Below are positions 39,873-53,899 of a stretch of 64,000 nt of DNA, piece after piece. The position numbers and the translations under genes are program-made. The stretch is from an uncultured Gammaproteobacteria bacterium (GTDB taxonomy: Bacteria; Patescibacteriota; Microgenomatia; CAZETR01; Amesbacteraceae): contig CAZCXU010000001.1 of the NCBI GenBank assembly GCA_964502885.1, forward strand, positions 93,352 through 157,351, read 5' to 3'. How positions within the stretch are numbered: position 1 is the first letter of the stretch; every line of letters begins with the position of its first letter. The notes below the pieces were generated by a model. That model was not told where the DNA came from and did no database searches. It saw nothing but the letters and a program-made list of their open reading frames with translations.

Positions 39873-40166
39873 TTAAATGTCTAGTTTGACGGTGGTATCT
39901 TTTAATGCCTGTTTCATCTGGCTTCTACCAAATCCACTCTTCAGAAATTTTTCCCTTGCTAGAGCGTCCTTTCTGGAAATGAAGTATTCGTAATGAATAA
40001 GTTTTAGTGGTCTTCTAAATTTAGTTGCTGTTACCCGACCTTGTGCGTGGAGAATCAGTCTGTGTTTTAGGTCGGACGTGAACCCAATATACAATCTGTG
40101 GTCTTTTTCACTAAAGAGGATGTAGGTATAAAAACGTTCCTTGGAAACGTCTAACGTTTCACTCAT
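39873..40166 (-). CDS. GIY-YIG nuclease-family small protein (UPF0213/YhbQ-like)
   Basis: FYTYILFSEKDHRLYIGFTSDLKHRLILH shows the GIY...YIG motifs. A possible longer start lies at 40202. It abuts the 3' end of the tmRNA gene. Confidence 0.6.
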   Translation of the reverse strand: MSETLDVSKERFYTYILFSEKDHRLYIGFTSDLKHRLILHAQGRVTATKFRRPLKLIHYEYFISRKDALAREKFLKSGFGRSQMKQALKDTTVKLDI

Positions 40167-40240
40167 CAAATATATTATGTGTGTCGCGTCTGACGCGATC
40201 ACCTTGCAAACACGTCTTCTTGCGAAGCCGCGTTTGACGC

Positions 40241-40639: not shown

Positions 40640-40705
40640 GACTAGCCAGGGATTATAGCAATTTGAGGCTGGAAAGTCCAGGCTGCTTGGGTTTATTGTG
40701 AAAGT

Positions 40706-41392
40706 ATGTTGCGGGGGTGGTTGAAAGCACTTTGGGGAGTACTTTTTCCGATCAGGTGTGTGGCCTGTGGTGAGCTGGGGGTTTGGGTGTGCGGGAAGTG
40801 CCAGGTTGGGTTGTGGGAGGAGGAGCAAATTTGCCCAGGGTGCGGACAGGCGAATAAAGGTGGGCTCAGGCACGGGAAGTGTGGCGGACGATCGGACCTT
40901 TTGGGCCTGACAAATATATGGGCGTATGAGGGAATGGCGAAGAAAATAATTACCGTGGCAAAGTATCGAGGTCAGTTCGCGGCCCTGGAGGTATTGTGTG
41001 AATTTGAGATGCAAAGAGATGACTTGGATCGATTCAGAGAGTTTTTGTCCACAAAGCCGATATTAGTGCCTATTCCTTTGTATAAAACCAGGTTTCGGGA
41101 GAGAGGCTTCAACCAGGCGGAAGTGATCGCTGAACTTTTGGCGCAAAAATGGAGTTTGCCTGTAAAGAAGCTGCTAACGCGGGTTCGCGATACTGGGCAT
41201 CAGGCGGGGCGGGAGAGATGGATGAGGATGGTGAGCATCAGGGAAGCATTTCAGGTGAGCGCAAAGGGTACCGTGGCCTCAATAGTGCTGGTAGACGATG
41301 TGTGGACTACGGGAGCTACTATGAATGAGGCGGCCAGAGAGTTGTCGAAAGCGGGTTTTAAACGGATTTGGGGACTTGTACTGGCGCATTGA
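40706..41392 (+). CDS. comF: ComF family phosphoribosyltransferase-domain protein
   Basis: N-terminal Cys4 zinc finger (CVACG...CGKC...CPGCG...HGKCG). C-terminal PRTase motif LVDDVWTTGATM. Confidence 0.7.
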   Translation: MLRGWLKALWGVLFPIRCVACGELGVWVCGKCQVGLWEEEQICPGCGQANKGGLRHGKCGGRSDLLGLTNIWAYEGMAKKIITVAKYRGQFAALEVLCEFEMQRDDLDRFREFLSTKPILVPIPLYKTRFRERGFNQAEVIAELLAQKWSLPVKKLLTRVRDTGHQAGRERWMRMVSIREAFQVSAKGTVASIVLVDDVWTTGATMNEAARELSKAGFKRIWGLVLAH

Positions 41393-42560: not shown

Positions 42561-42624
42561 TTATTGATACTAAGTCTAGCATTATTTGGTTTTTGGGGCA
42601 TGATCTGAGAAAATGTGTGGGCTT

Positions 42625-42709
42625 GGAGGATATCCCGAACGGCTGAGGGAATGGTTTGCTAAACCATGAAGGCGCAAGTCTTCGGTGGGTTCGACTCCCA
42701 CATCCTCCG
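42625..42709 (+). tRNA. tRNA-Ser (anticodon GCU)
   Basis: Acceptor GGAGGAT/ATCCTCC. Anticodon stem ATGGT/ACCAT with loop TTGCTAA. Long variable arm. T-arm GTGGG-TTCGACT-CCCAC. Discriminator G. CCA not encoded. Confidence 0.8.
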
Positions 42710-42968
42710 CAAATGAGATTATTAAATAAGAAATCATTATTACTAATATTGCTGGGTGGGATTTTTTACTTGTCATTTTATGTGTTTGGTTTGCTACATC
42801 GTATTGGGTTTCCTATTACACATCCCATTTATGCAGATTGTATTGGACACAAAAGGGTGTTTGAAGATTCAAGGGGTATAAGAAGAGTCGCGTGCTATGG
42901 ATTTATATACAACATCTGGCTTGAGTAAAGGGTTTTTTAGTTGTATTACAATTTGTTGTTTTTGGGGA

Positions 42969-43050
42969 TGTGGGCGGAAGGGGCGAATATTGAACTTCGT
43001 TCAAGAATCTCGCAAGACAGCGGAAGGGGCGAGATGGTGTGCGGTGCTTC
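42969..43050. repeat. Two decayed direct copies of the 3'-terminal segment of tRNA-Ser(UGA)
   Basis: GCGGAAGGGGCGA recurs at about 42975 and about 43022, in addition to the genuine tRNA 3' end at 43097-43110. The 42975 copy extends to about 27 nt (GCGGAAGGGGCGAATATTGAACTTCG versus GCGGAAGGGGCGAGATTCGAACTCGCG). Confidence 0.45.
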
Positions 43051-43095
43051 GCATCCTCCGTTATCTCGCACTCTTTCTTCGCAGCGGAGCTGCTG

Positions 43096-43182
43096 CGGAA
43101 GGGGCGAGATTCGAACTCGCGAGGGTGTTGCCACCCTAGAGGTTTTCAAGACCTCCGCACTCGACCACTATGCGACCCTTCC
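43096..43182 (-). tRNA. tRNA-Ser (anticodon UGA)
   Basis: Minus-strand sequence GGAAGGGTCGCATAGTGGTCGAGTGCGGAGGTCTTGAAAACCTC...GCGAGTTCGAATCTCGCCCCTTCCG. Anticodon loop CTTGAAA. Long variable arm. Discriminator G. Confidence 0.8.
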
Positions 43183-43216
43183 TAGTGCAAATTAGCCTCC
43201 AAAATTATACCATTCA

Positions 43217-43741
43217 GTGTGCTATATTAGATTTATGGTTGAGGAAAATGTTGTGGAGCAGGAAAAAGTTTTGTTGACTTGGGAGGCAGAGAGTCGACCC
43301 TACAATCCAATTGATGAACAGACGAGGCCGGTAGTGCTCGTGTTGGCGGTGCTAGTAGGAATAGTGCTGCTTTTCACCGGCGAGACTATGATAATGATAG
43401 TGTTGGGATCATTAGCTTTTTTGTATGTGGTCTGGAATAAAAACCCGCCGGAAAAGATGGAGTTTACGATTACAAATAAGGGAATAAGAGCTTTTGATAG
43501 GGTGTATATGTGGTGGGAATTCGGGAGGTGGTGGATTGAAGAGAAGCAGAGCGGCAAAGTTCTGATATTGGAGATGATTTCCGGGTTAGTGGGTAGATTG
43601 TACTTGCCTTTGGAGGAGAGAAAGTCTGAAGATGTTAAAAAAGTAATGTCGAAGTATCTGGTATTTGATCAGCCACAAGATACGGCTGCTGACAAACTAG
43701 CAAGGTGGGTGGGGGAGAAGTTTCCTTTGAGAAATAGTTAG
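43217..43741 (+). CDS. Hypothetical two-TM membrane protein
   Basis: 174-aa ORF with TM helices in the N-terminal half. Confidence 0.35.
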   Translation: MCYIRFMVEENVVEQEKVLLTWEAESRPYNPIDEQTRPVVLVLAVLVGIVLLFTGETMIMIVLGSLAFLYVVWNKNPPEKMEFTITNKGIRAFDRVYMWWEFGRWWIEEKQSGKVLILEMISGLVGRLYLPLEERKSEDVKKVMSKYLVFDQPQDTAADKLARWVGEKFPLRNS

Positions 43742-43797
43742 TGATCCTAAGTGACAAGGTGGAAGAGGTAGCGCTGATTGTGGGTGTGGGGGTTGTG

Positions 43798-46476
43798 TCA
43801 ATTGACAACAGATGACACATCAACGACGTAAAAGCCTTTCTCGTTTGGTTCAATATTGCCATATAAGGTAATGGGTTGTCCGGAACCATTATTTTTAGTG
43901 GCGGTAATTTTTACTCCAGAGGTTGTTTTTTCTGCTAATAGGTTGTAATTTCTGTCGCCGTTTTTAGAATAGCTGACATATATACTTGATTTGGTCTTGG
44001 TGTTGAAAAAAACGTAAGCATACATTTTGGACACTGCGGGGTTGGAATCGCCAATGATCAGTATTTCTCCTTCTTTCAAAAAGACCGGATAATCCAAACT
44101 TCCCGAGGAGGATGCAATTGGAACATATTGATAGCTTCTATCTCCTTCAAGATATTTGACACCCTTTGTACGGGGGTTGGAGATCAACGGAAGCCAGTTT
44201 CCTTCAGGAAAGTAGACATTCAGACTGTCTGCGTTTTTAACGAATACCGGCCTGACTAACAAAGCCTTGCCAAACATATATTCATTTTTGGGCTGGGAGG
44301 GACTTGTCATTTCACTGTACTGAGCATTAGCTTTGGGATCGTTTGGATAATCAAACACGAGAGGTCTCATTAAGTGAGAGGTTTTCTCTTCGTAGCCCAG
44401 AGAAGCGTAATCAAATGCATAACGTTGGAGGCGCTGTCTCATTTGCATATTCCAAATAACGATATTTTGTAAGTGTGTATCCGGACCAGTGTCGTTTGAC
44501 AGACTGCCAGTTCTAAGCCGCCAGTAGCCAGGGGAAAACATGGTGACGGGAAACCAGGTTGCCAGTTGGTGTTGTCTGACAAAATGGACTTTTTCGTTTT
44601 CGTCATAGTAGTTTGATATCTGGCCGTTGTCATACTTTCCGACAATACCCCAATTTGTTTGCAGGGGAATACCTGATAGGACAGTGTTGATTGCCATGTC
44701 TGTGCAGTACTTGAATTTATAGATATTGGTACTGACGGACGAATAATTCGGATCTGGATAGTGAGGGGCCCAATAGTCTGTCGAGGTGCAAAGATTGTAA
44801 AATGCATCAGTCTGCGAGAACCAGTTGTTTGGAGTAAAGATTAAAAAGTTTGAACCGTATTGTTGATAATAAGTTTCGAATGGGAGTTTGAAAGCGTCAT
44901 CCCTGTCGTTTTTCAGCTTGCTCCTATCAAATATTGGAGTAGGAGTCGGGGTCGGTTTTGCTGAGAGGTGGGCGATATATCCTTTGTTGTCTGAAACGCG
45001 CATATCATCGTATTTAAATCCGCCAAACGTTTTGTTTGGATCTGTCGATCCGTATGCGCTTTTTAGCAGGGACGTCCATTTTGTTACCACGTCCACATCA
45101 AATACGTTTAATTGATAGTGGTATTTTTGCTTGGTCGTCTGGTTGTAGGTGAAGGTATCACCGTTATAGTAAACAGCTGGAGTTTGAGGAGAGTTCGAAA
45201 CGGTCAACAGAGTCTTGTCTATGGGCATACCGAATTTTGAGGAAACCACGGAAATGTTTGAGTTGTTTATGTCTCCCGGTTGTATCTGCGGTCTCATCCC
45301 CAGAATTGGGATTATCCCTTTGCTTCGAATTTTTGAGAATACATCAGCCAGTCCTGATGGGAATCTGGTTGTATTTTGAGCAAAGGCATCTGTTGCGGCT
45401 GTAAGCATTCTTTCGTCTCCACCGAGCCTGCAACCCACTGAAGCGCTATCGCTAATTCCTTTCCACCACCCTGATCCCAAAGTAAGAGTTGAGAGCTTAA
45501 TATTTTTCGAAGAGTAAAGGTTGACTATGCTGTTGCTGGCGTCGATAACAGTGGAGGCTGTTGGAGCGCATCCAAGTTCCTGGAACGTTTCCCAATTGTT
45601 GCCAAACGTCGCGTACTTCGGTTTTACGTTTAAAAAATTATTTCTGTCTAGATAGGCGAAGTATTTTGAGTAGGCATCCGCAAAAGAGGTCCCCTTTATG
45701 ATTACCAGTGGAGCAGATGACCCCTCCGGATAGAGGTGGTGTTTTTTAAATACTAAGCAAGTTTTGCCTTGTGGGCAATTAAACGCCTCACTGGGATTTT
45801 TGTTTACATTGCGTGTCAGCCTTAACATTTTCACTTCTGGTTGGACGTAAAAGATTATGAGAGACGCACTTGGGATGCTAATAATAGGTGTTCGCCCCCT
45901 GATAGCGTCGCCGTTCCATAGTTCCATTGTTTGGGATTGATTGTTGGAAAGACGGTTGGTTATTTCGTGTCCAAAGCCAAAGTTGGTATCAAGGAAGTCG
46001 TCTAGCTCGGCTTTATTTGATTTGAAAGGTGTTACGCCAAGACCAAATATTTTTGCAGTTGTGCCGCTAATGTGGATTTCGTATCTATCCACTTCACATC
46101 CTGTGGAGCCTAACACACAACTGGAGGAGCCGTTTCTGACGATAAAGCTATTGTTTGCTCCCTTTTCTATTGTGGCGGGGGCTTTTAACTCATAGACGCC
46201 GTTATCGATTTTATTAACAATTGTGTTGGGGGGAGGAGTAATGACCGTTTGGGTGTCGAGTTGGGCCTGGTAAATGGTGGAATTACCGGTTATGGCCGCT
46301 TTGGTTTGGGAGTTTGTTTGGTTTTTTATTGAGACAATTGTCGCAACAAATAAAGCACAGAGACCAACCAGCGATACCAGTGAAGCGAACAGAAACTTTT
46401 TCCTGGTTTGTTTGGGGGGAGTTGAGATTGGTTGTGTTTCCTGAAATATTTCTGGTGGGTTTTCGCTTTGATCCAT
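43798..46476 (-). CDS. Large membrane-anchored/secreted glycoside hydrolase family 31-like protein
   Basis: N-terminal TM helix. The C-terminal half has RPLVFDYPNDPKANAQYSE...YMFGKALLVRPVFVKNADSLNVYFPEGNWLPL, which resembles the GH31 alpha-glucosidase distal region. Confidence 0.4.
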   Translation of the reverse strand: MDQSENPPEIFQETQPISTPPKQTRKKFLFASLVSLVGLCALFVATIVSIKNQTNSQTKAAITGNSTIYQAQLDTQTVITPPPNTIVNKIDNGVYELKAPATIEKGANNSFIVRNGSSSCVLGSTGCEVDRYEIHISGTTAKIFGLGVTPFKSNKAELDDFLDTNFGFGHEITNRLSNNQSQTMELWNGDAIRGRTPIISIPSASLIIFYVQPEVKMLRLTRNVNKNPSEAFNCPQGKTCLVFKKHHLYPEGSSAPLVIIKGTSFADAYSKYFAYLDRNNFLNVKPKYATFGNNWETFQELGCAPTASTVIDASNSIVNLYSSKNIKLSTLTLGSGWWKGISDSASVGCRLGGDERMLTAATDAFAQNTTRFPSGLADVFSKIRSKGIIPILGMRPQIQPGDINNSNISVVSSKFGMPIDKTLLTVSNSPQTPAVYYNGDTFTYNQTTKQKYHYQLNVFDVDVVTKWTSLLKSAYGSTDPNKTFGGFKYDDMRVSDNKGYIAHLSAKPTPTPTPIFDRSKLKNDRDDAFKLPFETYYQQYGSNFLIFTPNNWFSQTDAFYNLCTSTDYWAPHYPDPNYSSVSTNIYKFKYCTDMAINTVLSGIPLQTNWGIVGKYDNGQISNYYDENEKVHFVRQHQLATWFPVTMFSPGYWRLRTGSLSNDTGPDTHLQNIVIWNMQMRQRLQRYAFDYASLGYEEKTSHLMRPLVFDYPNDPKANAQYSEMTSPSQPKNEYMFGKALLVRPVFVKNADSLNVYFPEGNWLPLISNPRTKGVKYLEGDRSYQYVPIASSSGSLDYPVFLKEGEILIIGDSNPAVSKMYAYVFFNTKTKSSIYVSYSKNGDRNYNLLAEKTTSGVKITATKNNGSGQPITLYGNIEPNEKGFYVVDVSSVVN

Positions 46477-46587
46477 TTCTTACTTCGGTAAGCTTAGGCG
46501 TTGTTAATTTATATGTCAACCTTCCGCATTATTTGGACAGTAGAGAGTGGCGTATACAATTTGTATTCTAGTTTTGGAGATTGTTTG

Positions 46588-46659
46588 TGCCCTCAGTAGG
46601 AATTGAACCTACATCAACAGTTCCGGAAACTGCTACTCTATCCGTTGAGCTATGAGGGC
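46588..46659 (-). tRNA. tRNA-Arg (anticodon CCG)
   Basis: Minus-strand sequence GCCCTCATAGCTCAACGGATAGAGTAGCAGTTTCCGGAACTGTTGATGTAGGTTCAATTCCTACTGAGGGCA. Anticodon loop TTCCGGA. Confidence 0.7.
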
Positions 46660-46686
46660 CTTTTTGACGGATTACGTTTGATTTTA

Positions 46687-47886
46687 TCAGCATAATCTAT
46701 CGTAAATCTCTTCGAGAGCATCTGTCATGGAGTCAGTGGTATATTTCTGAGCGTCTTTTGCTGCCTGTTGGCCGATGCGTCTTTGTAGTGAGGTGTCGGA
46801 CATGAGTTTTTCAAGAAGGCCGGCAAGGGCTTCGGGGTTTTGTGGATCAACCAGAAATCCGTTGTAGTTGTCTTTGATGTATTCTGTGGGACCTCCGGTG
46901 TTTGAAGAGATTACTACTTTTCCTGTGGCCATCGCTTCCAAATACATGAGGCCGAATGTCTCGTAGAGGGATGGAACACAAACAATGTCGCTGCCAGCGT
47001 AATATTCTGGCATATCGTCGGGATCAATCGTGTCAATAAAACTGACGTTGGATTTGACACCTGTTTTAGAGAGTTGCGTGTCCAGTGAACTTTTTGCGGC
47101 GGCAACCACTTCGTTTCCGTAGACTTCATTGAAAATACTCACAAACTGATAATTGGTGATACCCTTTGTTGCCAAATGTCCGAGGGCATCAAACACTAAT
47201 CGGAGGTTTTTTTGTTTGTTCAGGTTTCCCGTGGTGAGACTGAACAGGCGAGCAGGGCTAAACAGAATGGTTTGATCAGGCAGAGTACGAAATTTTTGCA
47301 TAACGGGTGAAGGAAGAGCCGATGAAAACTTTTTTACATCTATACCGTTATAAACTGTGGAGATCTTTTTCGCATTTGTGCCCAATTTCAACCATTCGTT
47401 TTTTACGAAATTACTGACACAAATCAAGTGATTCCAAGGGAGATCGCGGAGCGGTTTGGTGATTTCAGGATCTTTTAACTGGGCGTTGTGGGCGTGTTCG
47501 ACAATGGGGAGCGAAAACCCTAGTAGATGAGAGAAAATTGTGAGGATATTATCGACACCAATAGATTTGTCTGCAGAGCCGGATGGGTACGAGCCATTGT
47601 GAAAGTGAATCAGGTCCGGTTTAAGCTGGCTGATGATCTTTGAGAGATCGGCACAAGCAGTTGGCTTATCAATGGGATTTCGTGAGTCAATATATTTTCT
47701 ACGAAACACCCTAATGCCAAAAATGTATTTCTCGTTTTCTGCCGCATCGCTAAGGACGGAGGTAAGAACCGAAACATGATGTCCCCGTCTGACCAATTCT
47801 CTGGCTTGGTTAAGAAGAATGGTTTCAGCGCCTCCGACTTTTGGGTAGAACAACCAACCAACAAAAAGGATCCTTTTAGGATTCAT
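46687..47886 (-). CDS. Glycosyltransferase family 4 (GT-B, retaining)
   Basis: Classic GT4 N-terminus (KVGGAETILLNQARELVRRGHHVSVLT) and C-terminal E-x7-E-type region. Confidence 0.7.
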   Translation of the reverse strand: MNPKRILFVGWLFYPKVGGAETILLNQARELVRRGHHVSVLTSVLSDAAENEKYIFGIRVFRRKYIDSRNPIDKPTACADLSKIISQLKPDLIHFHNGSYPSGSADKSIGVDNILTIFSHLLGFSLPIVEHAHNAQLKDPEITKPLRDLPWNHLICVSNFVKNEWLKLGTNAKKISTVYNGIDVKKFSSALPSPVMQKFRTLPDQTILFSPARLFSLTTGNLNKQKNLRLVFDALGHLATKGITNYQFVSIFNEVYGNEVVAAAKSSLDTQLSKTGVKSNVSFIDTIDPDDMPEYYAGSDIVCVPSLYETFGLMYLEAMATGKVVISSNTGGPTEYIKDNYNGFLVDPQNPEALAGLLEKLMSDTSLQRRIGQQAAKDAQKYTTDSMTDALEEIYDRLC

Positions 47887-48448
47887 AATGAAGATCGAGT
47901 TCTATTAAATCATTGTGAGAGAAATCCGGACGCGGCGAATTACCAATTTTTTCGGCTATCAAACGATTAAACATTGCATGACCCACCAATAAAACATTTT
48001 GATTTTTAATTTTTTTCAAAAATTCTTTGAGCTGGTTAATACGACTGATGAGCGTTTGAATATTTTCTCCGCCGGTGAAGCTCCAATCGTCAGAAATCAA
48101 TGATTGGGAGCGGGAATAGTCTTTGGGGAAGGAGTTGGCTGCCGCTGATGGGGTAAGGCCGCTAAGAACTCCAAAATCCACTTCGTTTAGCAAGGAAGTT
48201 TGTTCGATGGGAACACTTTTTTTGTATATTTTTTCCTGCTGGCGCTGAATGATTAATGCGGTGGCCAAACTCCTTTTTAATGTACTGCTGATTATTGTGT
48301 CGAGTTCGATAAACTCGGTAATTTTTTGGGCAAAAACTCTTAAACCCGCGATGCCGGTCGGATGTAATTCGGTATCTAACCTACTACCCGCAAAGACTCC
48401 GTTTAAATTGTGAGTAGATTTTCCATGACGGATCAGGAGAAATGACAT
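47876..48448 (-). CDS. Histidine phosphatase superfamily (phosphoglycerate mutase-like) protein
   Basis: MSFLLIRHGKSTHNLNGVFAGSRLDTELHPTGI shows the RHG catalytic motif. The start is coupled (TAATG) to the stop of the upstream GT2-HAD gene. Confidence 0.6.
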   Translation of the reverse strand: MSFLLIRHGKSTHNLNGVFAGSRLDTELHPTGIAGLRVFAQKITEFIELDTIISSTLKRSLATALIIQRQQEKIYKKSVPIEQTSLLNEVDFGVLSGLTPSAAANSFPKDYSRSQSLISDDWSFTGGENIQTLISRINQLKEFLKKIKNQNVLLVGHAMFNRLIAEKIGNSPRPDFSHNDLIELDLHYES

Positions 48449-49806
48449 TATTCGATTATAGCCAGTAATTCTGCCAGTATTTGGATGGTTTTGTCGGCAG
48501 ATTCTCGAAGTTCCGGCACAGTTGGCCTGTACGCAATACTTAATCCACATCGGGAGAAAATGGGAAGAATTTTGTTGTTTCCTGCTACGAAAATGGTTTC
48601 TGACGCCTTTACTTTTTGTGACTTTATAGCGGTGTCGAAAGCGCTTAGGAAAGATTCCGTGAGATTTCTTTTTAACCACTTTTGCGACTTGCGGCTAATA
48701 GCTCCCGTAAATTTGCCTTGTTTTGTCTCCAATATGACACTGTTCACATAGTGGGCGCCAATCTGTTTGGCAACCGCTTCGGCAATGGGAGAAAAGTTTG
48801 AAGTGATTATGCCGATGCGATATTTGCGTTTGATAAGCGCTCTTGCCACTTCTCTGGCATAACGAATTAGTTGCAGGTCCCTGGTAAGTTCTCTGACTTT
48901 GGAAACCTCGATATCCCTGAACAGGAGCGCGTTTTTTTTCAAGTATTCATCACCAGAGATTTTTTCGGAAATATATAGCTCGTGGTTATTGACAATGTCG
49001 TTGTGAATACCTAACTTGATGAGAAGTTTGCTGAGTGATGGTAGTCTGAGTAGGGTGTTGTCGAGTGTGAAGATAACCAGCTTGTATTTGTGGCGAATGA
49101 GTCCGGCACGGGAAATCATAGTTTCCAAAACTTGTCGACTCATTTCCTTTACTGTCTCGGCTGAATTGGCACGATTTACCAGATGACCAATGTCTACTTC
49201 TACAATGCGTTGCCCGGACTCTATCGCGTCAAAAAGTAGGCCAATGTCAACCCCGTATCGATCTGAGAATTCAGCTGTTTGCAGAAAGCTCTTTTTTGCG
49301 CATATCTGACCACTGATGGGTTGATTGAAATAAATACTTGGAAAAAGTATTTCCATCATGGGTTTGACCGCAAACTCAGTGACCCGACCTCTTTTTCTGC
49401 TAAATGATCCCCGTGACATATCAACTTCGTCTTTGAGAACAGGTTCGACGATTTTGTAGATTTTTTGACTGGTGATGTTGCCAAGATCTGCGTCCAGAAA
49501 AAGAACGACTTCATTTTTTGCTCTTTTTACACCAGCCAGCAAAGCTTTCCCTTTGCCGCGATTTTTTTCCAGTCTGTGGTAGATAAATCTGGGATCGGTC
49601 TGAAACTGCTTTACTGAATTTATTGTATCGTCGGTACTGCCGTCATCAACAAAGATAAGTTCGTCCAGGTAGGGAACTTTTAACAATTCATTGAGAACAT
49701 GGATGAACAGGGGGTTTTCGTTATAGGATGGGACTACCGCAGTAAATTTTGTGTAGATGAGCTGGCTGTCTGTGGTATTTTCTGGTTGGAGCGCTTCATT
49801 TGACAT
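48448..49806 (-). CDS. Fusion of a GT2-type glycosyltransferase (N-terminal) and a HAD-like hydrolase domain (C-terminal)
   Basis: AVVPSYNENPLFIHVLNEL...FVDDGSTDDT...LFLDADL are GT-A motifs. C-terminal ...IGIITSNFSPIAEAVAKQ...VAGNNKI resembles the HAD-IB fold, with a partly degenerate motif I (FTLDNTLL). Confidence 0.5.
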   Translation of the reverse strand: MSNEALQPENTTDSQLIYTKFTAVVPSYNENPLFIHVLNELLKVPYLDELIFVDDGSTDDTINSVKQFQTDPRFIYHRLEKNRGKGKALLAGVKRAKNEVVLFLDADLGNITSQKIYKIVEPVLKDEVDMSRGSFSRKRGRVTEFAVKPMMEILFPSIYFNQPISGQICAKKSFLQTAEFSDRYGVDIGLLFDAIESGQRIVEVDIGHLVNRANSAETVKEMSRQVLETMISRAGLIRHKYKLVIFTLDNTLLRLPSLSKLLIKLGIHNDIVNNHELYISEKISGDEYLKKNALLFRDIEVSKVRELTRDLQLIRYAREVARALIKRKYRIGIITSNFSPIAEAVAKQIGAHYVNSVILETKQGKFTGAISRKSQKWLKRNLTESFLSAFDTAIKSQKVKASETIFVAGNNKILPIFSRCGLSIAYRPTVPELRESADKTIQILAELLAIIE

Positions 49807-49949
49807 TGTGGCTAATTATAACAGTGATTTAATTGCATCACTTTTATGGAGTGATGACTAAATGTCTTTTGCTCTATGGGGTGTCCAAGTGCGAAGAATT
49901 TATGATTCTTCAAGTTTTGCGAATGAAGGTTTGTGCTGTGCGGGTACTG

Positions 49950-50037
49950 CGGAGAGGGTGGGATTTGAACCCACGAGGAGGTTTTGCCCCCTACAGCTTT
50001 TCGAGAGCTGCGCCTTCGACCACTCGGCCACCTCTCC
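49950..50037 (-). tRNA. tRNA-Ser (anticodon CGA)
   Basis: Minus-strand sequence GGAGAGGTGGCCGAGTGGTCGAAGGCGCAGCTCTCGAAAAGCTG...GTGGGTTCAAATCCCACCCTCTCCG. Long variable arm. Discriminator G. Confidence 0.8.
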
Positions 50038-50099
50038 TGACGTATTGTTCCTTCGACTCCGCTCAGGACTGCGACTTTTTGACTAATCAAAAGTCTTGG

Positions 50100-50171
50100 T
50101 GCACCCGACAGGAATCGAACCTGTATCAACAGTTCCGCAAACTGTCACTCTATCCGTTGAGCTACGGGTGC
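50100..50171 (-). tRNA. tRNA-Arg (anticodon GCG; unusual for bacteria, which normally use ACG/ICG)
   Basis: Minus-strand sequence GCACCCGTAGCTCAACGGATAGAGTGACAGTTTGCGGAACTGTTGATACAGGTTCGATTCCTGTCGGGTGCA. Anticodon loop TTGCGGA. Confidence 0.65.
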
Positions 50172-50224
50172 AGATTTTGTAACGTAGAGTGAATTTTATC
50201 ATTTCCATAAGTTAAAATTGGCAG

Positions 50225-51724
50225 ATGGGCAAAAAAGTAGTCTTTGGGTTGGGTTTATGGGTGGCGGTGTGGGCAAGCTTTTGGTTTATGGGGTGGAAGC
50301 TAATTGACCCTGATTTTGGCTGGCACTTACAGATTGGAAGAAAGTTTTTAGCGGGAGAAATGGTAAAAACTGATCCTTTTTCATATACCATGCCGAGCTT
50401 TCCGTGGATTGATCATGGGAGGGTAACTGATATGGCGATTGCATTTCTGTACGACGGGTGGGGAATGGGAGTCACGGCGGCGGTGTTTGCAGGGATTGGT
50501 ACGGCTGCGTTGATACTGATTATTCCTGTGGGTTTGTGGGTGTGGAGTGTGGTGCCGCTACTGTTTGGCTGGGGAGTATTGGTGATGCGGTCGGGAGTGC
50601 GGCCGCAGATGGAAGATTGGCTGTTTGTGGCGATTATTTGGCGTGCTGTTGAGGCCGGCAGGTGGAAGTTTTTAAGGTGGTTTTTGCCTGTTCTGTTTGT
50701 CATCTGGGTAAATGTTCACGGGGGCTTTTTGTTGGGGTTAATTATTGTGTGTGCGGGAGTGGCGGGTAAGTGGTGGAAAAAACGAAGAATTGTGATATCT
50801 GATGTGATCGTGTGGATACTTTGTCTGTTGGGGACGGGGATAAATTATTATGGATTCAGAATTTGGGAGGAGATTTGGTTGACGGTTTCGGATACGCATT
50901 TGCGGGGCTCGATTGTGGAGTGGCAACCATTTGTGACTCGGGTAGAACTGGGGTTGTGGTTGCTTGGCGGAATGGTGTTTTTTGCTGGTAAAAAGTTTTT
51001 ACGCAATTTATCTGCGAGCAGGTTATTAATTGTTGCAGCGGTGACGGCTGCCGGTTTATCTTCATTACGGCACGCGCCATTTCTAGTCATGATTCTGGTG
51101 ACTTTGGGGGCAGAAATATTTAAAAATTTTTATGATGAGATTAAGTCTGATAAAGAAAAGGTAAAAAGAGCGAAGGTTTTTTATGGTGTGCTTCTAGGAT
51201 TGGGACTAATAATATTTGCAATGGAGGGGGGGGTGACTTTGTGGAAAGCCGGGCGCGGCAGACTTCTAAATTATCCTGATGGAGCAATTGAATATCTAAG
51301 GAAAAGTGAGATTTCAGGAAGACTTTTTTCCACTTATTCGTGGGGAGGATATTTGATATGGAAGCTGCCGGAGCAGAAAGTGTTTGTGGATGGAAGAATG
51401 CCGAGTTGGAGGTGGAAAGCTCCGGAAGGAGAAAGCGATTGGGCTTTTGTGGACCATGAAAAAATTCAATCAGGGGAAAAAAGAATGGAGTTGTTTGATA
51501 AATATAATATCAAGACCGTGTTGTGGGCGAAGCCGGCAGAGAAAAAGGGGATTACTGCTTGGTGGCAGAAAATGTGGGGAGGGCGATCGCAGGTTGGATT
51601 TGATGAAGCGTTGAAAAGCGAAGGATGGAAAGTGGTGTATGAGGATGCTATATCGGTGGTATTAACCTATCCAGTACCAGTTGACAAAAAAGAGAGAAAC
51701 GAGACAGAGTCCCAGAGCGGATAA
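50225..51724 (+). CDS. Polytopic membrane protein, putative GT-C-type glycosyltransferase
   Basis: About 11 TM helices in the N-terminal two thirds, then a soluble C-terminal domain. Sits in a locus of glycosyltransferases. Confidence 0.3.
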   Translation: MGKKVVFGLGLWVAVWASFWFMGWKLIDPDFGWHLQIGRKFLAGEMVKTDPFSYTMPSFPWIDHGRVTDMAIAFLYDGWGMGVTAAVFAGIGTAALILIIPVGLWVWSVVPLLFGWGVLVMRSGVRPQMEDWLFVAIIWRAVEAGRWKFLRWFLPVLFVIWVNVHGGFLLGLIIVCAGVAGKWWKKRRIVISDVIVWILCLLGTGINYYGFRIWEEIWLTVSDTHLRGSIVEWQPFVTRVELGLWLLGGMVFFAGKKFLRNLSASRLLIVAAVTAAGLSSLRHAPFLVMILVTLGAEIFKNFYDEIKSDKEKVKRAKVFYGVLLGLGLIIFAMEGGVTLWKAGRGRLLNYPDGAIEYLRKSEISGRLFSTYSWGGYLIWKLPEQKVFVDGRMPSWRWKAPEGESDWAFVDHEKIQSGEKRMELFDKYNIKTVLWAKPAEKKGITAWWQKMWGGRSQVGFDEALKSEGWKVVYEDAISVVLTYPVPVDKKERNETESQSG

Positions 51725-52852
51725 AATAAAAAGGGGGAGGAAAGTTCGAAGAGAAGAAGTTTTTGTGGCAAGAAATATAAATAAGGGAAAGGAGACGCTT
51801 TGAAAGCGGGTAAATGCGGCCAGATCGCGAACTAACAAGGGGGTAAGAAAGATCGATAAGGATACGCCCCAAAGAACAAGGGGAAGGGTTTTACGGCTAA
51901 GATATAACAAGATGATCACAAAAAAAGCAACGAGGTTGTCAAGCTGGGAAGCGTGAACAGTATGGAAAGGTAGGTCTATTGTTTTCATAAGTAGTATGAG
52001 GTTGAGAATGGGGGCGGGAAGAACCATCGGACTGTACCAAACTGATTGGATGGCGAAGAAATAGATGGGATTATGTGCGGTTAAGTAATTGAATACCATC
52101 CAAACCAACATGGGTAGGCCGATGATTGTCGGATATACAACAGCCGTAAGCGGTTTAATTTTGGTTTCGACTATGGATTTAATCAGAATGAACAGGAAGA
52201 TGAAATTGACCAGAACAACTGTTCCTTTGGTTACATTTATCAGACCCAGCAGGATGGACGCGGGGAGGAACTTCTTTTGTAATAGGAAGTAGCTAAACCA
52301 GACAAGGAACAGCATTAGCAATGATTCCGCGTAATATGAGCGGAAAAAAATGGAAAAAGGGAAGACAAAAAGCAGCCAGGAAGCGCGTATGGCTATTTGT
52401 GGATTGTATAGCCTTGAAATTACAATCATTAAACTGAGAAAATTGCATACAAGAAGGATTTGAGTGAGGATAAAGGCGGCGAGTAACGAGTCTTTGAAAA
52501 TGACTTTGGTGAGCCAGCCTAGTAGTGGAAATGCAGGGAAAAAGGCATACGAAGGATTTTGCATAAGACTTTTGTCGTTGAGTGATTGCTCTGTGGGAGA
52601 AAACGAGTATCCAGAATCAATAATTTTTAAATACCATTGGGCGTCAAACTGGGCCATTCCGTGAAGAAGGTTGAAACCTTTTCCTGTGATGCGGGGATCT
52701 GTGAAGTAGTGGTGGGCATCATTGTGGTATGAAAAGCGGTTGAGGGGGATGAATGTGTGGAAAGTGCCGATAAAAAAGTAAAGAAGTGTATTGAATAGCA
52801 TAAATAACAAAGTGTGGCGAATCAGTATGTGTGGGGTTGGGGGGCCAGCCAT
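51662..52852 (-). CDS. Polytopic membrane protein (putative GT-C / mannosyltransferase-like)
   Basis: 396 aa with about 10 TM helices. Confidence 0.3.
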   Translation of the reverse strand: MAGPPTPHILIRHTLLFMLFNTLLYFFIGTFHTFIPLNRFSYHNDAHHYFTDPRITGKGFNLLHGMAQFDAQWYLKIIDSGYSFSPTEQSLNDKSLMQNPSYAFFPAFPLLGWLTKVIFKDSLLAAFILTQILLVCNFLSLMIVISRLYNPQIAIRASWLLFVFPFSIFFRSYYAESLLMLFLVWFSYFLLQKKFLPASILLGLINVTKGTVVLVNFIFLFILIKSIVETKIKPLTAVVYPTIIGLPMLVWMVFNYLTAHNPIYFFAIQSVWYSPMVLPAPILNLILLMKTIDLPFHTVHASQLDNLVAFFVIILLYLSRKTLPLVLWGVSLSIFLTPLLVRDLAAFTRFQSVSFPLFIFLATKTSSLRTFLPLFILSALGLCLVSLFFVNWYWIG

Positions 52853-52867
52853 GATAAAATTCTACAG

Positions 52868-53000
52868 CAGTGTGGAGTTGGTTTTGGAGAGGTCGCATAC
52901 AGGAGCCTCTATCTTCAACCTCGCGGTTGAAGTTTCTCCTGTATTACTTCCTCTCCTCGTTTCACTTGGAGAGGTCGCATATCAAACTTGCAGTTTGATA
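52868..53000. repeat. Upstream partial copies of the tRNA-Ser(GGA) 5' end plus strong hairpins
   Basis: GGTTTTGGAGAGGTCGCATA at 52871-52890 and TTGGAGAGGTCGCATA at about 52962-52978 duplicate the real tRNA 5' end plus flank (53095-53114). One hairpin is ATACAGGAG...CTTCAACC-tcgc-GGTTGAAG...CTCCTGTAT at about 52886-52935. Another is ATATCAAACT-tgc-AGTTTGATAT at about 52975-52998. Confidence 0.45.
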
Positions 53001-53100
53001 TAGCTTGCCGTGCTTTGTCAAAAATTGTAAAAATTTTTGAGTCGCAGGGCGCACTATAGCAAGCTATTTGACCTTATTTGTAATAAAATTTACTGGTTTT

Positions 53101-53190
53101 GGAGAGGTCGCATAGTGGTCTAGTGCGCACGCTTGGAAAGCGTGTGTCGCCGAAAGGTGACCGCGAGTTCAAATCTCGCCCTCTCCGCCA
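53101..53190 (+). tRNA. tRNA-Ser (anticodon GGA), CCA encoded
   Basis: GGAGAGGTCGCATAGTGGTCTAGTGCGCACGCTTGGAAAGCGTGTGTCGCCGAAAGGTGACCGCGAGTTCAAATCTCGCCCTCTCCGCCA. Anticodon loop TTGGAAA. Long variable arm. Confidence 0.8.
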
Positions 53191-53467
53191 ATTCGGATTC
53201 GAAAAAAGCTTTTTTAACTCCACTGCTGGTTTGTATTTATGGTGACCGTCGCGTCGAACGCGACTAACGCGCCTCGTCCCGTTAAGCGGGACGCGTGGAA
53301 TCACGAACAAATCTTGCCCTCTTTGGCCAATTCGGATTCGAAAAGAGCTTTTTTAACTCCACTGCTGGTTTGTATTTATGGTGACCGTCGCGTCGAACGC
53401 GACTAACGCGCCTCGTCCCGTTAAGCGGGACGCGTGGAATCACGAACAAATCTTGCCCTCCTTTTAA
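53190..53467. repeat. Two near-identical tandem direct repeats of 139 bp immediately 3' of tRNA-Ser(GGA), each ending in a tRNA-3'-end-like motif
   Basis: Unit 1 is 53190-53328 and unit 2 is 53329-53467. They differ at one position (AAAAAAGC versus AAAAGAGC). Each unit reads AATTCGGATTCGAAAA(A/G)AGCTTTTTTAACTCC...GGTGACCGTCGCGTCGAACGCGACTAACGCGCCTCGTCCCGTTAAGCGGGACGCGTGGAATCACGAACAAATCTTGCCCTC. The unit ends resemble the tRNA 3' end CAAATCTCGCCCTCTCCGCC. Confidence 0.75.
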
Positions 53468-53470
53468 ATC

Positions 53471-53899
53471 ATGTCTGAAGTAAAATTGGAGCATATGCGA
53501 ACAAATGTGAGGGTGGGGGCGATAATTGAGAGGGATGGAAAAATGCTTCTTATTCACCGTTGGAAAAACGGAGATGAATATTGGGTATTGGTTGGTGGTG
53601 GGGTAGAAGAGGGAGAAGATTTGGTTGAGGCGTTGAAACGGGAAGTATTGGAAGAGACCTCTTTGCGGTTGAAGAACTGGGAAGTTGAGATAGAACATGA
53701 AGCAATGGGGATGATGCATAAAATTTTCCGTTGTGTTACTGAAGAAGGGGAGCCTGTATTGGGTGGTCCTGAAAAAGAGGCAGATTCTGATGAAAATAGA
53801 TATGTACTGGAGTGGGTAGATTTTTCTACTATTGCTGAGATTGAGGATATTTACCCGAGAGTCACAAGAGAACTAGCCAGGAAACGCATCGCAAAGTGA
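53471..53899 (+). CDS. NUDIX hydrolase
   Basis: Nudix box GGGVEEGEDLVEALKREVLEETSL (GX5EX7REUXEEXGU). Confidence 0.7.
   Translation: MSEVKLEHMRTNVRVGAIIERDGKMLLIHRWKNGDEYWVLVGGGVEEGEDLVEALKREVLEETSLRLKNWEVEIEHEAMGMMHKIFRCVTEEGEPVLGGPEKEADSDENRYVLEWVDFSTIAEIEDIYPRVTRELARKRIAK

What the first reader, a model, noticed from the sequence alone, without database searches (positions are those of the whole stretch)
52861..53470. tRNA-Ser(GGA) embedded in a repeat-rich structured region: 2 x 139-bp perfect tandem repeats downstream and two 5'-end copies plus long hairpins upstream
Downstream, two 139-bp units (53190-53328 and 53329-53467; 1 mismatch) each end with a motif resembling the tRNA 3' terminus (CAAATCTYGCCCTC...). 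The pattern tRNA-3'end / body / 3'end-like / body / 3'end-like looks like tandem att-site duplications or a 120-bp miniature element inserted twice at a tRNA-end target. The unit body contains the palindrome GAAAAAAGCTTTTTT and a GC-rich double hairpin (GTCGCG-TCGAA-CGCGAC; ACGCGCCTCGTCCC-GTTAAGC-GGGACGCGT), so it may be a transcribed structured RNA. The second copy ends 3 nt before the NUDIX gene start codon. Upstream, the tRNA 5' end plus flank (GGTTTTGGAGAGGTCGCATA) is duplicated twice amid 9-10-bp-stem hairpins. Spurious minus-strand ORFs (53074-53310, 53282-53719) span the repeats.
Basis: seen in the sequence. Interest (0 to 1): 0.65.

Follow-up and report, generated by a model that had tools for sequence, protein, structure and literature searches.

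The report
Mobile-element scars flanking a tRNA gene
An intact serine tRNA gene in an uncultured Patescibacteria genome is flanked on both sides by short hairpin-rich insertions that carry copies of the tRNA's own ends; the best-supported reading is that they are gene-less leftovers of small nuclease-gene cassettes that sit at tRNA gene ends in these bacteria.

Summary
tRNA-Ser(GGA) lies at 53101-53190. A 139-bp unit follows in 2.1 tandem copies, each ending in a copy of the tRNA T-loop/3' end. The tRNA 5' end occurs twice more upstream among strong hairpins.

The 5' side is a true insertion. A syntenic relative (L124) has the empty site, so window 52900-53114 is a 215-bp insert after tRNA position 14, bounded by a perfect 21-nt direct repeat.

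Polar end-copies are common in Patescibacteria. Of 91 tRNA-Ser(GGA) loci, 12 have a 3'-end copy downstream and 7 a 5'-end copy upstream; wrong-side controls give 0-1. tRNA-Ser(TGA) in this window shows the same.

The unit shares a distinctive hairpin (stem, GT-NNN-AC) with a small GIY-YIG nuclease gene cassette that abuts the tmRNA 3' end 13 kb away. Homologues of that gene lie 33-195 nt (mostly 70-110) downstream of a tRNA or tmRNA in 44 of 80 metagenomic loci. They have a conserved, covarying hairpin leader. About a fifth also have a displaced tRNA 3'-end copy after the gene.

Best reading: ORF-less remnants of cassettes that insert at tRNA ends, later duplicated in tandem. How the cassettes move is not shown. 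A functional RNA, an integrase att scar and an assembly artefact are less likely.

The parts
52879..52899 (+). Left copy of the 21-nt direct repeat (TGGTTTT plus tRNA positions 1-14). It marks the ancestral position of the tRNA 5' end, 33 nt from the start of the divergent 396-aa gene.
   Evidence: alignment with the empty site in L124
52900..52965 (+). 5' insert, part 1. A long hairpin (ATACAGGAG 52897-52905 pairs with CTCCTGTAT 52936-52944; inner stem-loop 52913-52932) is followed by CCTCTCC (52950-52956). CCTCTCC pairs with GGAGAGG at 52886-52892, giving an acceptor-stem-closed pseudo-tRNA.
   Evidence: sequence; fold z = -6.2; terminator-like scan
52966..52981 (+). Internal 16-nt copy of the tRNA 5' end (TT plus positions 1-14).
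52982..53093 (+). 5' insert, part 2. It contains the hairpin ATATCAAACT/AGTTTGATAT (52979-53001), a long-range stem ATAGCTTGC/GCAAGCTAT (53000-53008 with 53059-53067) and an inverted D-arm-like piece (53049-53061). L008 has a different hairpin sequence at the same tRNA position.
53094..53114 (+). Right copy of the 21-nt direct repeat, continuous with the intact tRNA.
53101..53190 (+). Intact tRNA-Ser(GGA) with an encoded CCA end.
53191..53329 (+). 139-bp unit, copy 1. No ORF. It ends in a pseudo tRNA 3' end (53308-53329).
53248..53264 (.). Hairpin GTCGCGT-CGA-ACGCGAC in unit 1, of the same class as the GIY-YIG cassette hairpins. The profile match covers 53234-53268 on the minus strand.
53267..53296 (+). 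Second GC-rich hairpin of unit 1 (ACGCGCCTCGTCCCG-TTAAG-CGGGACGCGT). No relatives were found.
53308..53321 (+). Copy of the tRNA T-loop, T-stem and start of the acceptor 3' strand (CAAATCTTGCCCTC) at the end of unit 1.
53330..53468 (+). 139-bp unit, copy 2. Identity to copy 1 runs to about 53463. Its hairpin lies at 53387-53403 and its pseudo 3' end at 53447-53460.
53495..53899 (+). NUDIX hydrolase gene, the neighbour and not part of the element. The start is probably ATG 53495. Similarity to near-identical strain L122 begins at 53494.
39873..40166 (-). Stand-alone GIY-YIG nuclease gene (97 aa, UPF0213 type), the putative autonomous relative of the units. A third hairpin of the same class lies in its first codons (40144-40160).
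40165..40240 (-). Conserved leader of the GIY-YIG cassette. It abuts the tmRNA 3' end (tmRNA 40241-40639, minus strand). hp1 lies at 40228-40242 and includes the terminal C of the tmRNA (the CC as read); hp2 lies at 40184-40198.
   Evidence: (E = 9.5e-19)
42974..43035 (-). Second case in the window. Two direct copies of the 3' end of tRNA-Ser(TGA) (gene at 43095-43182, minus strand) lie at 43020-43035 and 42974-42989. Each is preceded by a short inverted T-arm piece (GCGAGAT).

Best explanation
The tRNA-Ser(GGA) gene is intact. It has been hit repeatedly by small mobile DNA cassettes that insert inside the ends of tRNA genes. These cassettes keep the gene working because the insert brings, or duplicates, the tRNA segment it displaces.

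On the 5' side, 215 bp entered after tRNA position 14 in the D-loop. This left the old 5' end plus leader upstream as a 21-nt direct repeat, with a second nested 16-nt copy.

On the 3' side, a roughly 120-bp hairpin-rich body sits between the working 3' end and a displaced, degenerate copy that starts in the T-loop. That one-unit structure was then duplicated in tandem.

The body is an ORF-less, rearranged relative of a cassette family that is common in Patescibacteria. The cassette consists of a tRNA or tmRNA 3' end, a leader with two covarying hairpins of the type stem-GT-NNN-AC, a 90-100-aa stand-alone GIY-YIG nuclease gene, and in about a fifth of cases the displaced tRNA 3' end. One full cassette sits at the tmRNA gene 13 kb away in this window.

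Shown here: the insertion status of the 5' side; the polarity and frequency of end-copies; the tRNA/tmRNA association and the hairpin covariation of the cassette; and the shared hairpin class.

Inferred: that the nuclease, or another enzyme acting on the hairpins, moves the cassettes; that the units derive from such a cassette by loss of the gene; and that they have no function for the host.
For: 5' insertion:
- L124 is syntenic (499-aa gene, divergent 396-aa gene, tRNA-Ser(GGA), NUDIX). It has only 38 nt between the 396-aa gene and an uninterrupted tRNA.
- A three-way alignment shows the window's left junction matching L124 up to GCATA and the right junction matching from GGTTTT onward.

Generality and polarity (exact matches of at least 12 nt within 400 nt, 91 tRNA-Ser(GGA) loci from Patescibacteria):
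- 12 loci have a direct 3'-end copy downstream, 7 an inverted 3'-end copy downstream, and 7 a direct 5'-end copy upstream.
- All six wrong-side or mid-tRNA controls give 0-1.
- The same is seen at other tRNAs and at tRNA-Ser(TGA) in this window.
- Inserts after position 13-14 recur with unrelated sequences in L008, L019 and L002. In L019 and L002 they contain a GIY-YIG ORF.

Cassette family:
- 44 of 80 metagenomic loci with homologues (58-73% identity) of the window's GIY-YIG protein have a co-oriented tRNA or tmRNA 33-195 nt upstream. The tRNAs are of many identities.
- Most of the 'no tRNA' loci still have a tmRNA 3' end or a tRNA-3'-end-like piece fused to hp1.
- The leader is conserved. 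Its hairpins covary: 94% of cells are paired, and 65 cells have changes on both sides against 23 in shuffles. Slid controls give 24-48% paired.
- 7-9 of 35 distinct cassettes have a displaced tRNA 3'-end copy within 120 nt after the stop codon; controls give 0.

Link to the unit:
- CGCGTCNNACGCG (up to 1 mismatch) gives 10 matches in 64 kb, all in the tmRNA cassette leader or the two units, against 0.17 expected.
- Perfect hairpins of the class occur only at those five places, against 0.78 expected.
- A profile built only from metagenomic leaders hits both units at E = 5.4e-4. Those are the only hits among 113 tRNA-Ser(GGA) loci.

Recent duplication or polymorphism:
- The unit bodies differ at one base.
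- Logan contig L001 carries one unit.
- L122, with NUDIX DNA 98.5% identical, has neither the tRNA nor the unit upstream.
Against: - The similarity between unit and cassette is short, about 35 nt. It rests mainly on one quasi-palindromic hairpin, so even its orientation is ambiguous (minus strand E = 5e-4, plus strand E about 0.7).
- The unit lacks hp1 and any trace of the ORF.
- The displaced 3' copies match the tRNA for only 14 nt and then diverge sharply. That does not look like a simply decayed duplication.
- No homologue of the unit body or of the 5' insert was found anywhere, so mobility of these particular sequences is not shown.
- The GIY-YIG protein is a 97-aa UPF0213-type domain with no DNA-binding module. 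Such proteins are not established homing endonucleases.
- The mechanism that would create 14-21-nt direct repeats is unknown.
- The tmRNA cassette in the window has no significant displaced tmRNA end after its ORF (p about 0.14).
- The single-unit Logan contig could be a collapse in a de Bruijn graph assembly.
Confidence: 0.55

Rival explanations
1. These are att-site scars of classical integrase-mediated islands or prophages. Elements integrated at the tRNA 3' end and, unusually, at the 5' end. They were later almost entirely deleted, leaving attL/attR-like direct repeats around a stub, which then duplicated.
For: Direct repeats of the tRNA segment from the T-loop to the 3' end are the hallmark of tRNA-integrated elements (general knowledge). 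The repeats are real and the 5' side is an insertion.
Against: - No integrase domain was found in the eight neighbouring genes.
- Across 91 loci the end-copies all lie within about 350 nt of the tRNA, never kilobases away.
- The only gene repeatedly found inside such inserts is a small GIY-YIG gene.
- Viral-contig scans with the tRNA ends found only complete tRNAs in large phage tRNA arrays, not an attP.
Confidence: 0.15
2. The units and the upstream hairpins are functional RNA elements made with the tRNA. Examples would be tRNA-like minihelices acting as RNase P or 3'-processing signals, a stable trailer sRNA, or a leader controlling the NUDIX gene.
For: - The upstream region folds strongly (z = -6.2).
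- The first upstream piece closes a perfect 7-bp acceptor stem.
- Many downstream segments in other genomes fold into a long helix made of an inverted and a direct copy of the tRNA 3' end.
- A GC-rich module in some of them covaries, as do the cassette leader hairpins.
- The unit ends just before the NUDIX gene.
Against: - There is no Rfam match.
- The unit's fold is only modestly better than shuffles (z = -2.4).
- The unit is absent upstream of a 98.5%-identical NUDIX gene (L122) and from syntenic L124.
- No homologues were found.
- Such segments occur at only about 15-25% of loci and are visibly decaying, for example the direct copy in L014.
- The unit does not fit the covarying module model R1.
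Confidence: 0.12
3. The second copy is an assembly artefact or a trivial slippage duplication of an ordinary tRNA trailer, and there is no element at all.
For: A Logan contig from another run has exactly one unit. A two-copy tandem of 139 bp is near read length. The body is unique to this locus within the window.
Against: - The two copies differ by a SNP and have three distinct junction sequences, which an assembler would not invent.
- Even the one-unit form has the displaced tRNA-end copy and the cassette-type hairpin.
- The 5' side and tRNA-Ser(TGA) show independent events of the same kind.
Confidence: 0.1

Closest known systems
tRNA/tmRNA-gene-targeting integrative elements with att direct repeats, including integrase-less att-flanked remnants ('CIME'-type). 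Basis: my own knowledge, not tested here.
   Same: The insert lies within the segment from T-loop to 3' end. The gene stays intact because the insert supplies that segment. The displaced copy remains as a direct repeat on the far side. Tandem accretion at one tRNA occurs.
   Different: No integrase is present. The inserts are 50-400 bp rather than kilobases. The same logic also operates at the 5' end (D-loop, position 14). Bodies are dominated by hairpins, and the only recurrent cargo is a 90-100-aa GIY-YIG gene.
Free-standing GIY-YIG homing endonuclease genes in tRNA regions, for example phage T4 SegB (PMC2330249)
   Same: A GIY-YIG nuclease gene is embedded among tRNA genes. In T4 this arrangement drives preferential inheritance of the surrounding region.
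   Different: The proteins here are bare UPF0213-type catalytic domains with no DNA-binding module. They are chromosomal in Patescibacteria. They sit at a stereotyped distance from a tRNA 3' end, behind a conserved hairpin leader. No cleavage activity has been tested.
Pairs of an autonomous gene and ORF-less hairpin derivatives, such as RAYT/REPIN or IS/MITE. Basis: my own knowledge.
   Same: A nuclease gene flanked by characteristic hairpins coexists in the same genome with short ORF-less units that carry the same hairpin type.
   Different: The nuclease family differs (GIY-YIG, not HUH or DDE). There are no terminal inverted repeats and no dispersed copies in the 64 kb. The location is specific to tRNA ends.
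UPF0213 stand-alone GIY-YIG proteins (PDB 1YWL EF2693, 1ZG2 BH0048)
   Same: They show sequence similarity over the whole protein (E = 2e-5 and 1e-4) and have the same size.
   Different: Those proteins have no assigned function or genomic association in the records seen here. The tRNA/tmRNA linkage and the hairpin leader are features of the Patescibacteria group.

Membership tests
tRNA (Rfam RF00005), tRNA-Ser(GGA) | Cloverleaf with long variable arm, GGA anticodon, intact acceptor stem | tested here: met
   ARAGORN; Rfam 57.6 bits against a gathering score of 29
Integrase-mediated tRNA-integrated island or att scar | Direct repeat of the tRNA 3' segment bounding the insert | tested here: met
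   CAAATCTYGCCCTC occurs three times at 138-139-nt spacing
Integrase-mediated tRNA-integrated island or att scar | Tyrosine or serine recombinase gene inside or next to the insert | tested here: not met
   Eight genes across 48.4-59.3 kb have no recombinase domain. The insert itself has no ORF with a Pfam match. The rest of the genome was not available.
MITE | Terminal inverted repeats and a short target-site duplication | tested here: not met
   No inverted repeat lies at the unit ends. The flanking repeat is 14-21 nt of tRNA sequence.
MITE | Many dispersed copies in the genome | tested here: inconclusive
   The unit is unique in the 64-kb window. A 22-mer from it is absent from JGI metagenome contigs and IMG/VR. 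The whole genome was not available.
tRNA/tmRNA-3'-end GIY-YIG cassette of Patescibacteria (defined here) | Lies directly 3' of a tRNA or tmRNA gene, on the same strand | tested here: met
   The unit starts at the base after CCA (53191).
tRNA/tmRNA-3'-end GIY-YIG cassette of Patescibacteria (defined here) | hp2-type hairpin (stem, GT-NNN-AC) with its flanks | tested here: met
   Profile hit E = 5.4e-4 on both units, the only hits among 113 tRNA-Ser(GGA) loci. The orientation is ambiguous.
tRNA/tmRNA-3'-end GIY-YIG cassette of Patescibacteria (defined here) | hp1 (CC|G[C/A]GTCAAAC[G/T]CGG) abutting the tRNA end | tested here: not met
   The unit begins ATTCGGATTCG. The profile aligns only positions 38-72.
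tRNA/tmRNA-3'-end GIY-YIG cassette of Patescibacteria (defined here) | GIY-YIG ORF | tested here: not met
   There is no ORF with a GIY-YIG match in 52.8-53.5 kb. Hence the unit is called an ORF-less derivative, not a member in full.
tRNA/tmRNA-3'-end GIY-YIG cassette of Patescibacteria (defined here) | Displaced copy of the tRNA 3' end, starting in the T-loop, on the distal side | tested here: met
   Copies lie at 53308-53321 and 53447-53460. The same feature occurs in 7-9 of 35 full cassettes.
GIY-YIG homing endonuclease (I-TevI / Seg type) | GIY-YIG catalytic domain | tested here: met
   PF01541, E = 3e-14, for the ORF at 39873-40166
GIY-YIG homing endonuclease (I-TevI / Seg type) | Separate DNA-binding domain and site-specific cleavage of the empty allele | tested here: not met
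   The protein is 97 aa, a single domain, most like UPF0213. Cleavage cannot be tested with these tools.
GC-rich covarying module R1 found in other tRNA-Ser inserts | Match to covariance model R1 | tested here: not met
   No hit in 53190-53470 on either strand with filters off
Any Rfam family other than tRNA | Covariance-model match | tested here: not met
   Nothing credible up to E = 10 in 50-56 kb or in the cassette leader

The most novel reading that the evidence does not exclude
Patescibacteria may harbour a previously undescribed class of mobile element. In this class a bare UPF0213-type GIY-YIG nuclease gene travels with a set of covarying stem-GT-NNN-AC hairpins and a replacement tRNA end. 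The element inserts into the T-loop/3' end of essentially any tRNA or tmRNA gene, and a sister type inserts into the D-loop/5' end, without inactivating the gene. It also spawns ORF-less miniature derivatives such as the 139-bp units here. The hairpins would be the nuclease's recognition sites, as single-stranded DNA or as RNA.
Probability: 0.35. Interest if true: 0.75.

Novelty: new variant of a known kind. Interest (0 to 1): 0.58.

Why it matters
- For annotation: partial tRNA copies and GC-rich hairpins next to tRNA genes in Patescibacteria should be read as insertion debris, not as novel RNAs or att sites of missing prophages.
- For biology: these bacteria have tiny genomes that are thought to carry few mobile elements. 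Yet about a fifth of the tRNA loci sampled carry end-copies. A small nuclease gene family is tied to tRNA and tmRNA 3' ends with a conserved structured leader.
- If the nuclease and hairpins form a mobile system, it would give the widespread UPF0213 stand-alone GIY-YIG proteins a first genomic role. It would also be a compact example of an element that targets essential genes while repairing them.
- I found no description of this in the paper library searched. Absence from that library does not prove it is undescribed.

Tried and rejected
- Rfam over 50-56 kb, over six related loci and over the tmRNA cassette found only tRNA, tmRNA and RNase P.
- Exact 22-mer scans for the unit in JGI metagenome contigs and IMG/VR found nothing.
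- BLAST of the unit and the 5' insert against 120 Patescibacteria tRNA-Ser loci found nothing except the Logan contig.
- Viral-contig scans with the tRNA 3' and 5' ends, looking for a phage attP, found only complete tRNAs in tRNA arrays of large phages.
- I suspected the unit was an inverted member of a GC-rich module seen in L028, L061, L032, L049, L106 and L082. I built model R1. The module is real and covaries, but the window unit does not match it.
- I looked for closer syntenic relatives through the NUDIX and 396-aa proteins. The nearest are 62% and 50% identical. The Woesebacteria loci fetched have a different gene order. The source contig could not be retrieved.
- A possible displaced tmRNA 3' end after the window's GIY-YIG ORF is not significant (p about 0.14) and lies inside a convergent gene.
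- An alternative long-range helix in the cassette leader is weakly supported, with 67% of cells paired.
- The promoter scan found no sigma-70-like site in 52.7-53.6 kb.
- A protein alignment was too diverse for the search for related loci, so a single protein was used.
Full report
**What is there.** The window comes from a Patescibacteria (CPR) genome. The tRNA-Ser(GGA) sequence is shared with more than 120 Patescibacteria MAGs. The neighbouring 396-aa membrane protein has its relatives in Woesebacteria, Gottesmanbacteria and Levybacteria.

ARAGORN and Rfam confirm an intact tRNA-Ser(GGA) at 53101-53190. Downstream, Tandem Repeats Finder reports a 139-nt period at 53170-53460 with 2.1 copies. 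The two unit bodies differ at a single base. Each unit ends with CAAATCTTGCCCTC, a copy of the tRNA from the middle of the T-loop into the acceptor 3' strand.

Upstream, the 21-mer TGGTTTTGGAGAGGTCGCATA (7 nt of leader plus tRNA positions 1-14) occurs at 52879 and 53094. A 16-nt version lies at 52966. The 248 nt between the divergent gene and the tRNA fold with z = -6.2. The first piece even closes a perfect GGAGAGG/CCTCTCC acceptor stem around a long hairpin.

**The 5' side is an insertion.** The NUDIX homologue P0004 led to locus L124 (GCA_964441445.1). It keeps the window's gene order: 499-aa gene, divergent 396-aa gene, tRNA-Ser(GGA), NUDIX. There the tRNA follows the 396-aa gene after 38 nt and is uninterrupted.

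A three-way alignment shows two things. The window's left junction matches L124 through the leader and tRNA positions 1-14. The right junction matches from GGTTTT onward. So window 52900-53114 is a 215-bp insertion after position 14, flanked by a perfect 21-nt direct repeat. The internal 16-nt copy suggests two nested or successive events.

**Nearby strains differ.**
- Logan contig L001 (99.3% identical) has the tRNA, one unit and NUDIX.
- L122, whose NUDIX DNA is 98.5% identical, is similar only from window 53494 on. It has a different gene upstream.
- That breakpoint and the gene call of P0001 place the likely NUDIX start at ATG 53495.
- The units are therefore not an obligatory NUDIX leader.

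**The pattern is general and polar.** I oriented 113 Patescibacteria tRNA-Ser(GGA) loci and searched 400 nt on each side for exact matches of at least 12 nt to the tRNA's terminal 30 nt. Ninety-one loci had enough flank.

| Search | Loci with a match (of 91) |
|---|---|
| Direct 3'-end copy downstream | 12 |
| Inverted 3'-end copy downstream | 7 |
| Direct 5'-end copy upstream | 7 |
| Each of six wrong-side or mid-tRNA controls | 0-1 |

The copies lie 30-350 nt from the gene. The same is seen at tRNA-Arg and tRNA-Ser(CGA) in these loci. ARAGORN calls labelled tRNA-Pro and tRNA-Val on L085 also scored, but I did not confirm that they are tRNAs. It is also seen at tRNA-Ser(TGA) in this window, with copies at 43020-43035 and 42974-42989.

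The intervening bodies are unrelated between lineages, but the breakpoints recur. On the 5' side they fall after positions 13-17 or 25-26. On the 3' side they fall inside the T-loop. Many 3' segments also carry an inverted copy of the tRNA end. This copy pairs with the direct copy to make a long helix.

In L019 a complete, different tRNA-Ser(GGA) sits inside the anticodon loop of the resident gene, whose halves remain on either side. In L002 and L019 the 5' inserts contain a small GIY-YIG ORF.

**A cassette family tied to tRNA and tmRNA 3' ends.** A profile of those small GIY-YIG ORFs found one in the window, at 39873-40166 on the minus strand. It encodes 97 aa, matches Pfam PF01541 at E = 3e-14, and is closest to the UPF0213 structures 1YWL and 1ZG2. 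[quoted passage not shown]

A metagenome scan with this protein returned 80 loci at 58-73% identity.
- In 44 of them ARAGORN finds a co-oriented tRNA or tmRNA 33-195 nt upstream, mostly 70-110 nt.
- The tRNAs are His, Gly, Glu, Leu, Lys, Ala, Arg, Val and Ile, plus tmRNA.
- Fourteen more loci lack enough upstream sequence.
- Most of the remainder still show a tmRNA 3' end or a tRNA-3'-end-like piece fused to the same leader.

The leader is conserved. It reads ...CC|G(C/A)GTCAAAC(G/T)CGG (hp1, which includes the terminal CC), a linker, (G)TCGCGT-NNN-ACGCGA(C) (hp2), an A/T-rich stretch and then ATG. A third hairpin of the same type lies in the first codons in most loci.

On 35 distinct leaders the three-hairpin structure (hp1, a linker hairpin and hp2) is paired in 94% of cells. 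It has 65 cells with changes on both sides against 23 in shuffles, and falls to 24-48% paired when the partner is slid. hp1 alone is 99% paired and hp2 96% paired. In 7-9 of 35 distinct cassettes a copy of the tRNA 3' end, starting in the T-loop, follows the stop codon within 120 nt. Shuffled and ORF-body controls give none.

The full unit is therefore: working tRNA 3' end, hairpin leader, GIY-YIG gene, displaced 3' end. This is the same logic as the window's 139-bp unit, but with a gene.

**Link between the 139-bp unit and the cassette.**
- The motif CGCGTCNNACGCG (up to 1 mismatch) gives 10 matches in the 64-kb window. All lie in the tmRNA cassette leader (40185, 40229) or in the two units (53250/53259 and 53389/53398). 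Shuffles give 0.17.
- Perfect hairpins with at least 4 outer base pairs around GT-NNN-AC occur five times in the window. Three are in the cassette and one is in each unit. Shuffles give 0.78.
- A profile HMM built only from 57 metagenomic leaders hits the window's cassette leader at E = 9.5e-19 and both units at E = 5.4e-4. The unit hits are on the minus strand and cover hp2 and the A/T-rich flank.
- Among the 113 tRNA-Ser(GGA) loci these two units are the only hits.
- The unit also has GACGAGG just before the hairpin in that orientation, as many leaders do.

The similarity is short and the hairpin is nearly palindromic, so the orientation and the exact derivation remain uncertain. The unit has no hp1 and no ORF remnant.

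**How it most likely works.**

*Shown.* The tRNA is intact. The 5' flank is an insertion with a 21-nt direct repeat. tRNA end-copies are frequent and strictly polar. A GIY-YIG gene with a covarying hairpin leader is tied to tRNA and tmRNA 3' ends. The units share its hairpin class.

*Inferred.* Cassettes insert within the tRNA end while supplying or duplicating that end, so the essential gene survives and the old end is left as a decaying repeat. The gene is later lost, leaving hairpin-rich stubs. The stub at tRNA-Ser(GGA) then duplicated by unequal exchange or slippage between the 14-nt repeats.

Which enzyme moves the cassettes is unknown. Nor is it known whether movement is by staggered cleavage with fill-in, by recombination of a small circle, or by repair-mediated homing. 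The nuclease is a bare catalytic domain, and no activity can be tested here.

**Rivals.**
- *Integrase att scars.* These fit the repeats. They do not fit the lack of any recombinase, the tiny and uniform distances, the 5' events or the GIY-YIG link.
- *A functional RNA.* This fits the strong folds and the minihelix-like shapes. It does not fit the absence of the unit from near-identical and syntenic relatives, the lack of homologues or the visible decay.
- *An assembly artefact.* This could explain at most the second copy.

**Novelty.** Elements that integrate at tRNAs and restore the gene are known, as are GIY-YIG genes in tRNA regions (T4 SegB, PMC2330249). I found no description of a tRNA/tmRNA-3'-end cassette with a UPF0213-type nuclease and this hairpin leader, or of its ORF-less derivatives, in the library searched. 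One paper lists GIY-YIG domain proteins among genes that Patescibacteria are predicted to have donated to other bacteria by horizontal transfer (PMC12455944). I rate the locus itself as moderately interesting debris. The cassette family it led to is the more interesting lead.

Noticed in passing
window 39873-40242 (minus strand): A 97-aa stand-alone GIY-YIG (UPF0213-type) gene starts 74 nt after the tmRNA 3' end. Three hairpins of one class (stem, GT-NNN-AC) accompany it: hp1 overlaps the terminal C of the tmRNA, hp2 lies in the leader, and hp3 lies in the first codons.
   Followed up: yes
L136-L215 (80 JGI metagenome loci): Homologues of that GIY-YIG gene sit 33-195 nt downstream of tRNAs of many identities or of tmRNA, behind a conserved covarying leader. 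About a fifth have a displaced tRNA 3'-end copy after the ORF. L208 has two leaders in tandem. L209, L153 and L174 have an extra ORF-less insert plus an end-copy between the tRNA and the cassette.
   Followed up: yes
window 42974-43094 (minus strand): tRNA-Ser(TGA) is followed by two short units, 75 and 46 nt apart. Each ends in a copy of its 3' end and contains an inverted T-arm piece (GCGAGAT). They lack the GT-NNN-AC hairpin.
   Followed up: partly
L028 2025-2089, L061 3943-4007 and 4224-4297, L049 7339-7432, L032 5627-5708, L082 5908-5983; also L106: A GC-rich module (GNC-GGAG-hairpin-CGAG-GN'C-GGGGTCGCG...GTGACC) recurs inside the tRNA-Ser 5' and 3' inserts of different genomes and next to tRNA-Ser(CGA). 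Ten of its 22 pairs covary. It has no Rfam match. It shares the CGAGG...GTCGCG flavour with the GIY-YIG leader.
   Followed up: partly
L019 (JAGLPS010000023.1), about 400 nt either side of the tRNA: The resident tRNA-Ser(GGA) is split in its anticodon loop by a roughly 170-nt insert that carries a complete tRNA-Ser(GGA) of different sequence. A GIY-YIG ORF lies between two 5' fragments further upstream.
   Followed up: partly
L054 (JBAXRQ010000001.1), just downstream of the tRNA: A perfect 32-bp palindrome joins the tRNA's last 17 nt, a terminator-like hairpin and an exact inverted copy of the tRNA end. Several other loci have imperfect versions.
   Followed up: no
window 53471-53494 and L122: A strain with NUDIX DNA 98.5% identical has a different gene immediately upstream. 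The breakpoint lies exactly at 53493/53494, so the region just 5' of NUDIX is a rearrangement hotspot. ATG 53495 is the likely start.
   Followed up: partly
window 40241-53190: All four tRNA-Ser isoacceptors (GCT, TGA, CGA, GGA), two tRNA-Arg genes and the tmRNA gene lie within 13 kb. The tmRNA tag predicted by ARAGORN is long (28 aa, ARVEGFVAKVNPFNSIFSTQFAPRMLYA).
   Followed up: no
L061 3476-3838 and L080 3215-3645: The RNase P RNA gene lies within a few hundred bases (L061) to under 1 kb (L080) of tRNA-Ser(GGA) in two unrelated Patescibacteria loci.
   Followed up: no
L125-L129 (Woesebacteria loci around the 394-aa homologue): Another small GIY-YIG ORF (85-94 aa) lies between a DnaG primase gene and a 489-aa gene. 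This shows the family is also found away from tRNAs, or next to ones not looked for.
   Followed up: no
whole window: GC skew is positive in every 2-kb bin, so the cumulative skew rises steadily. This is consistent with one replichore and mostly co-oriented genes.
   Followed up: no
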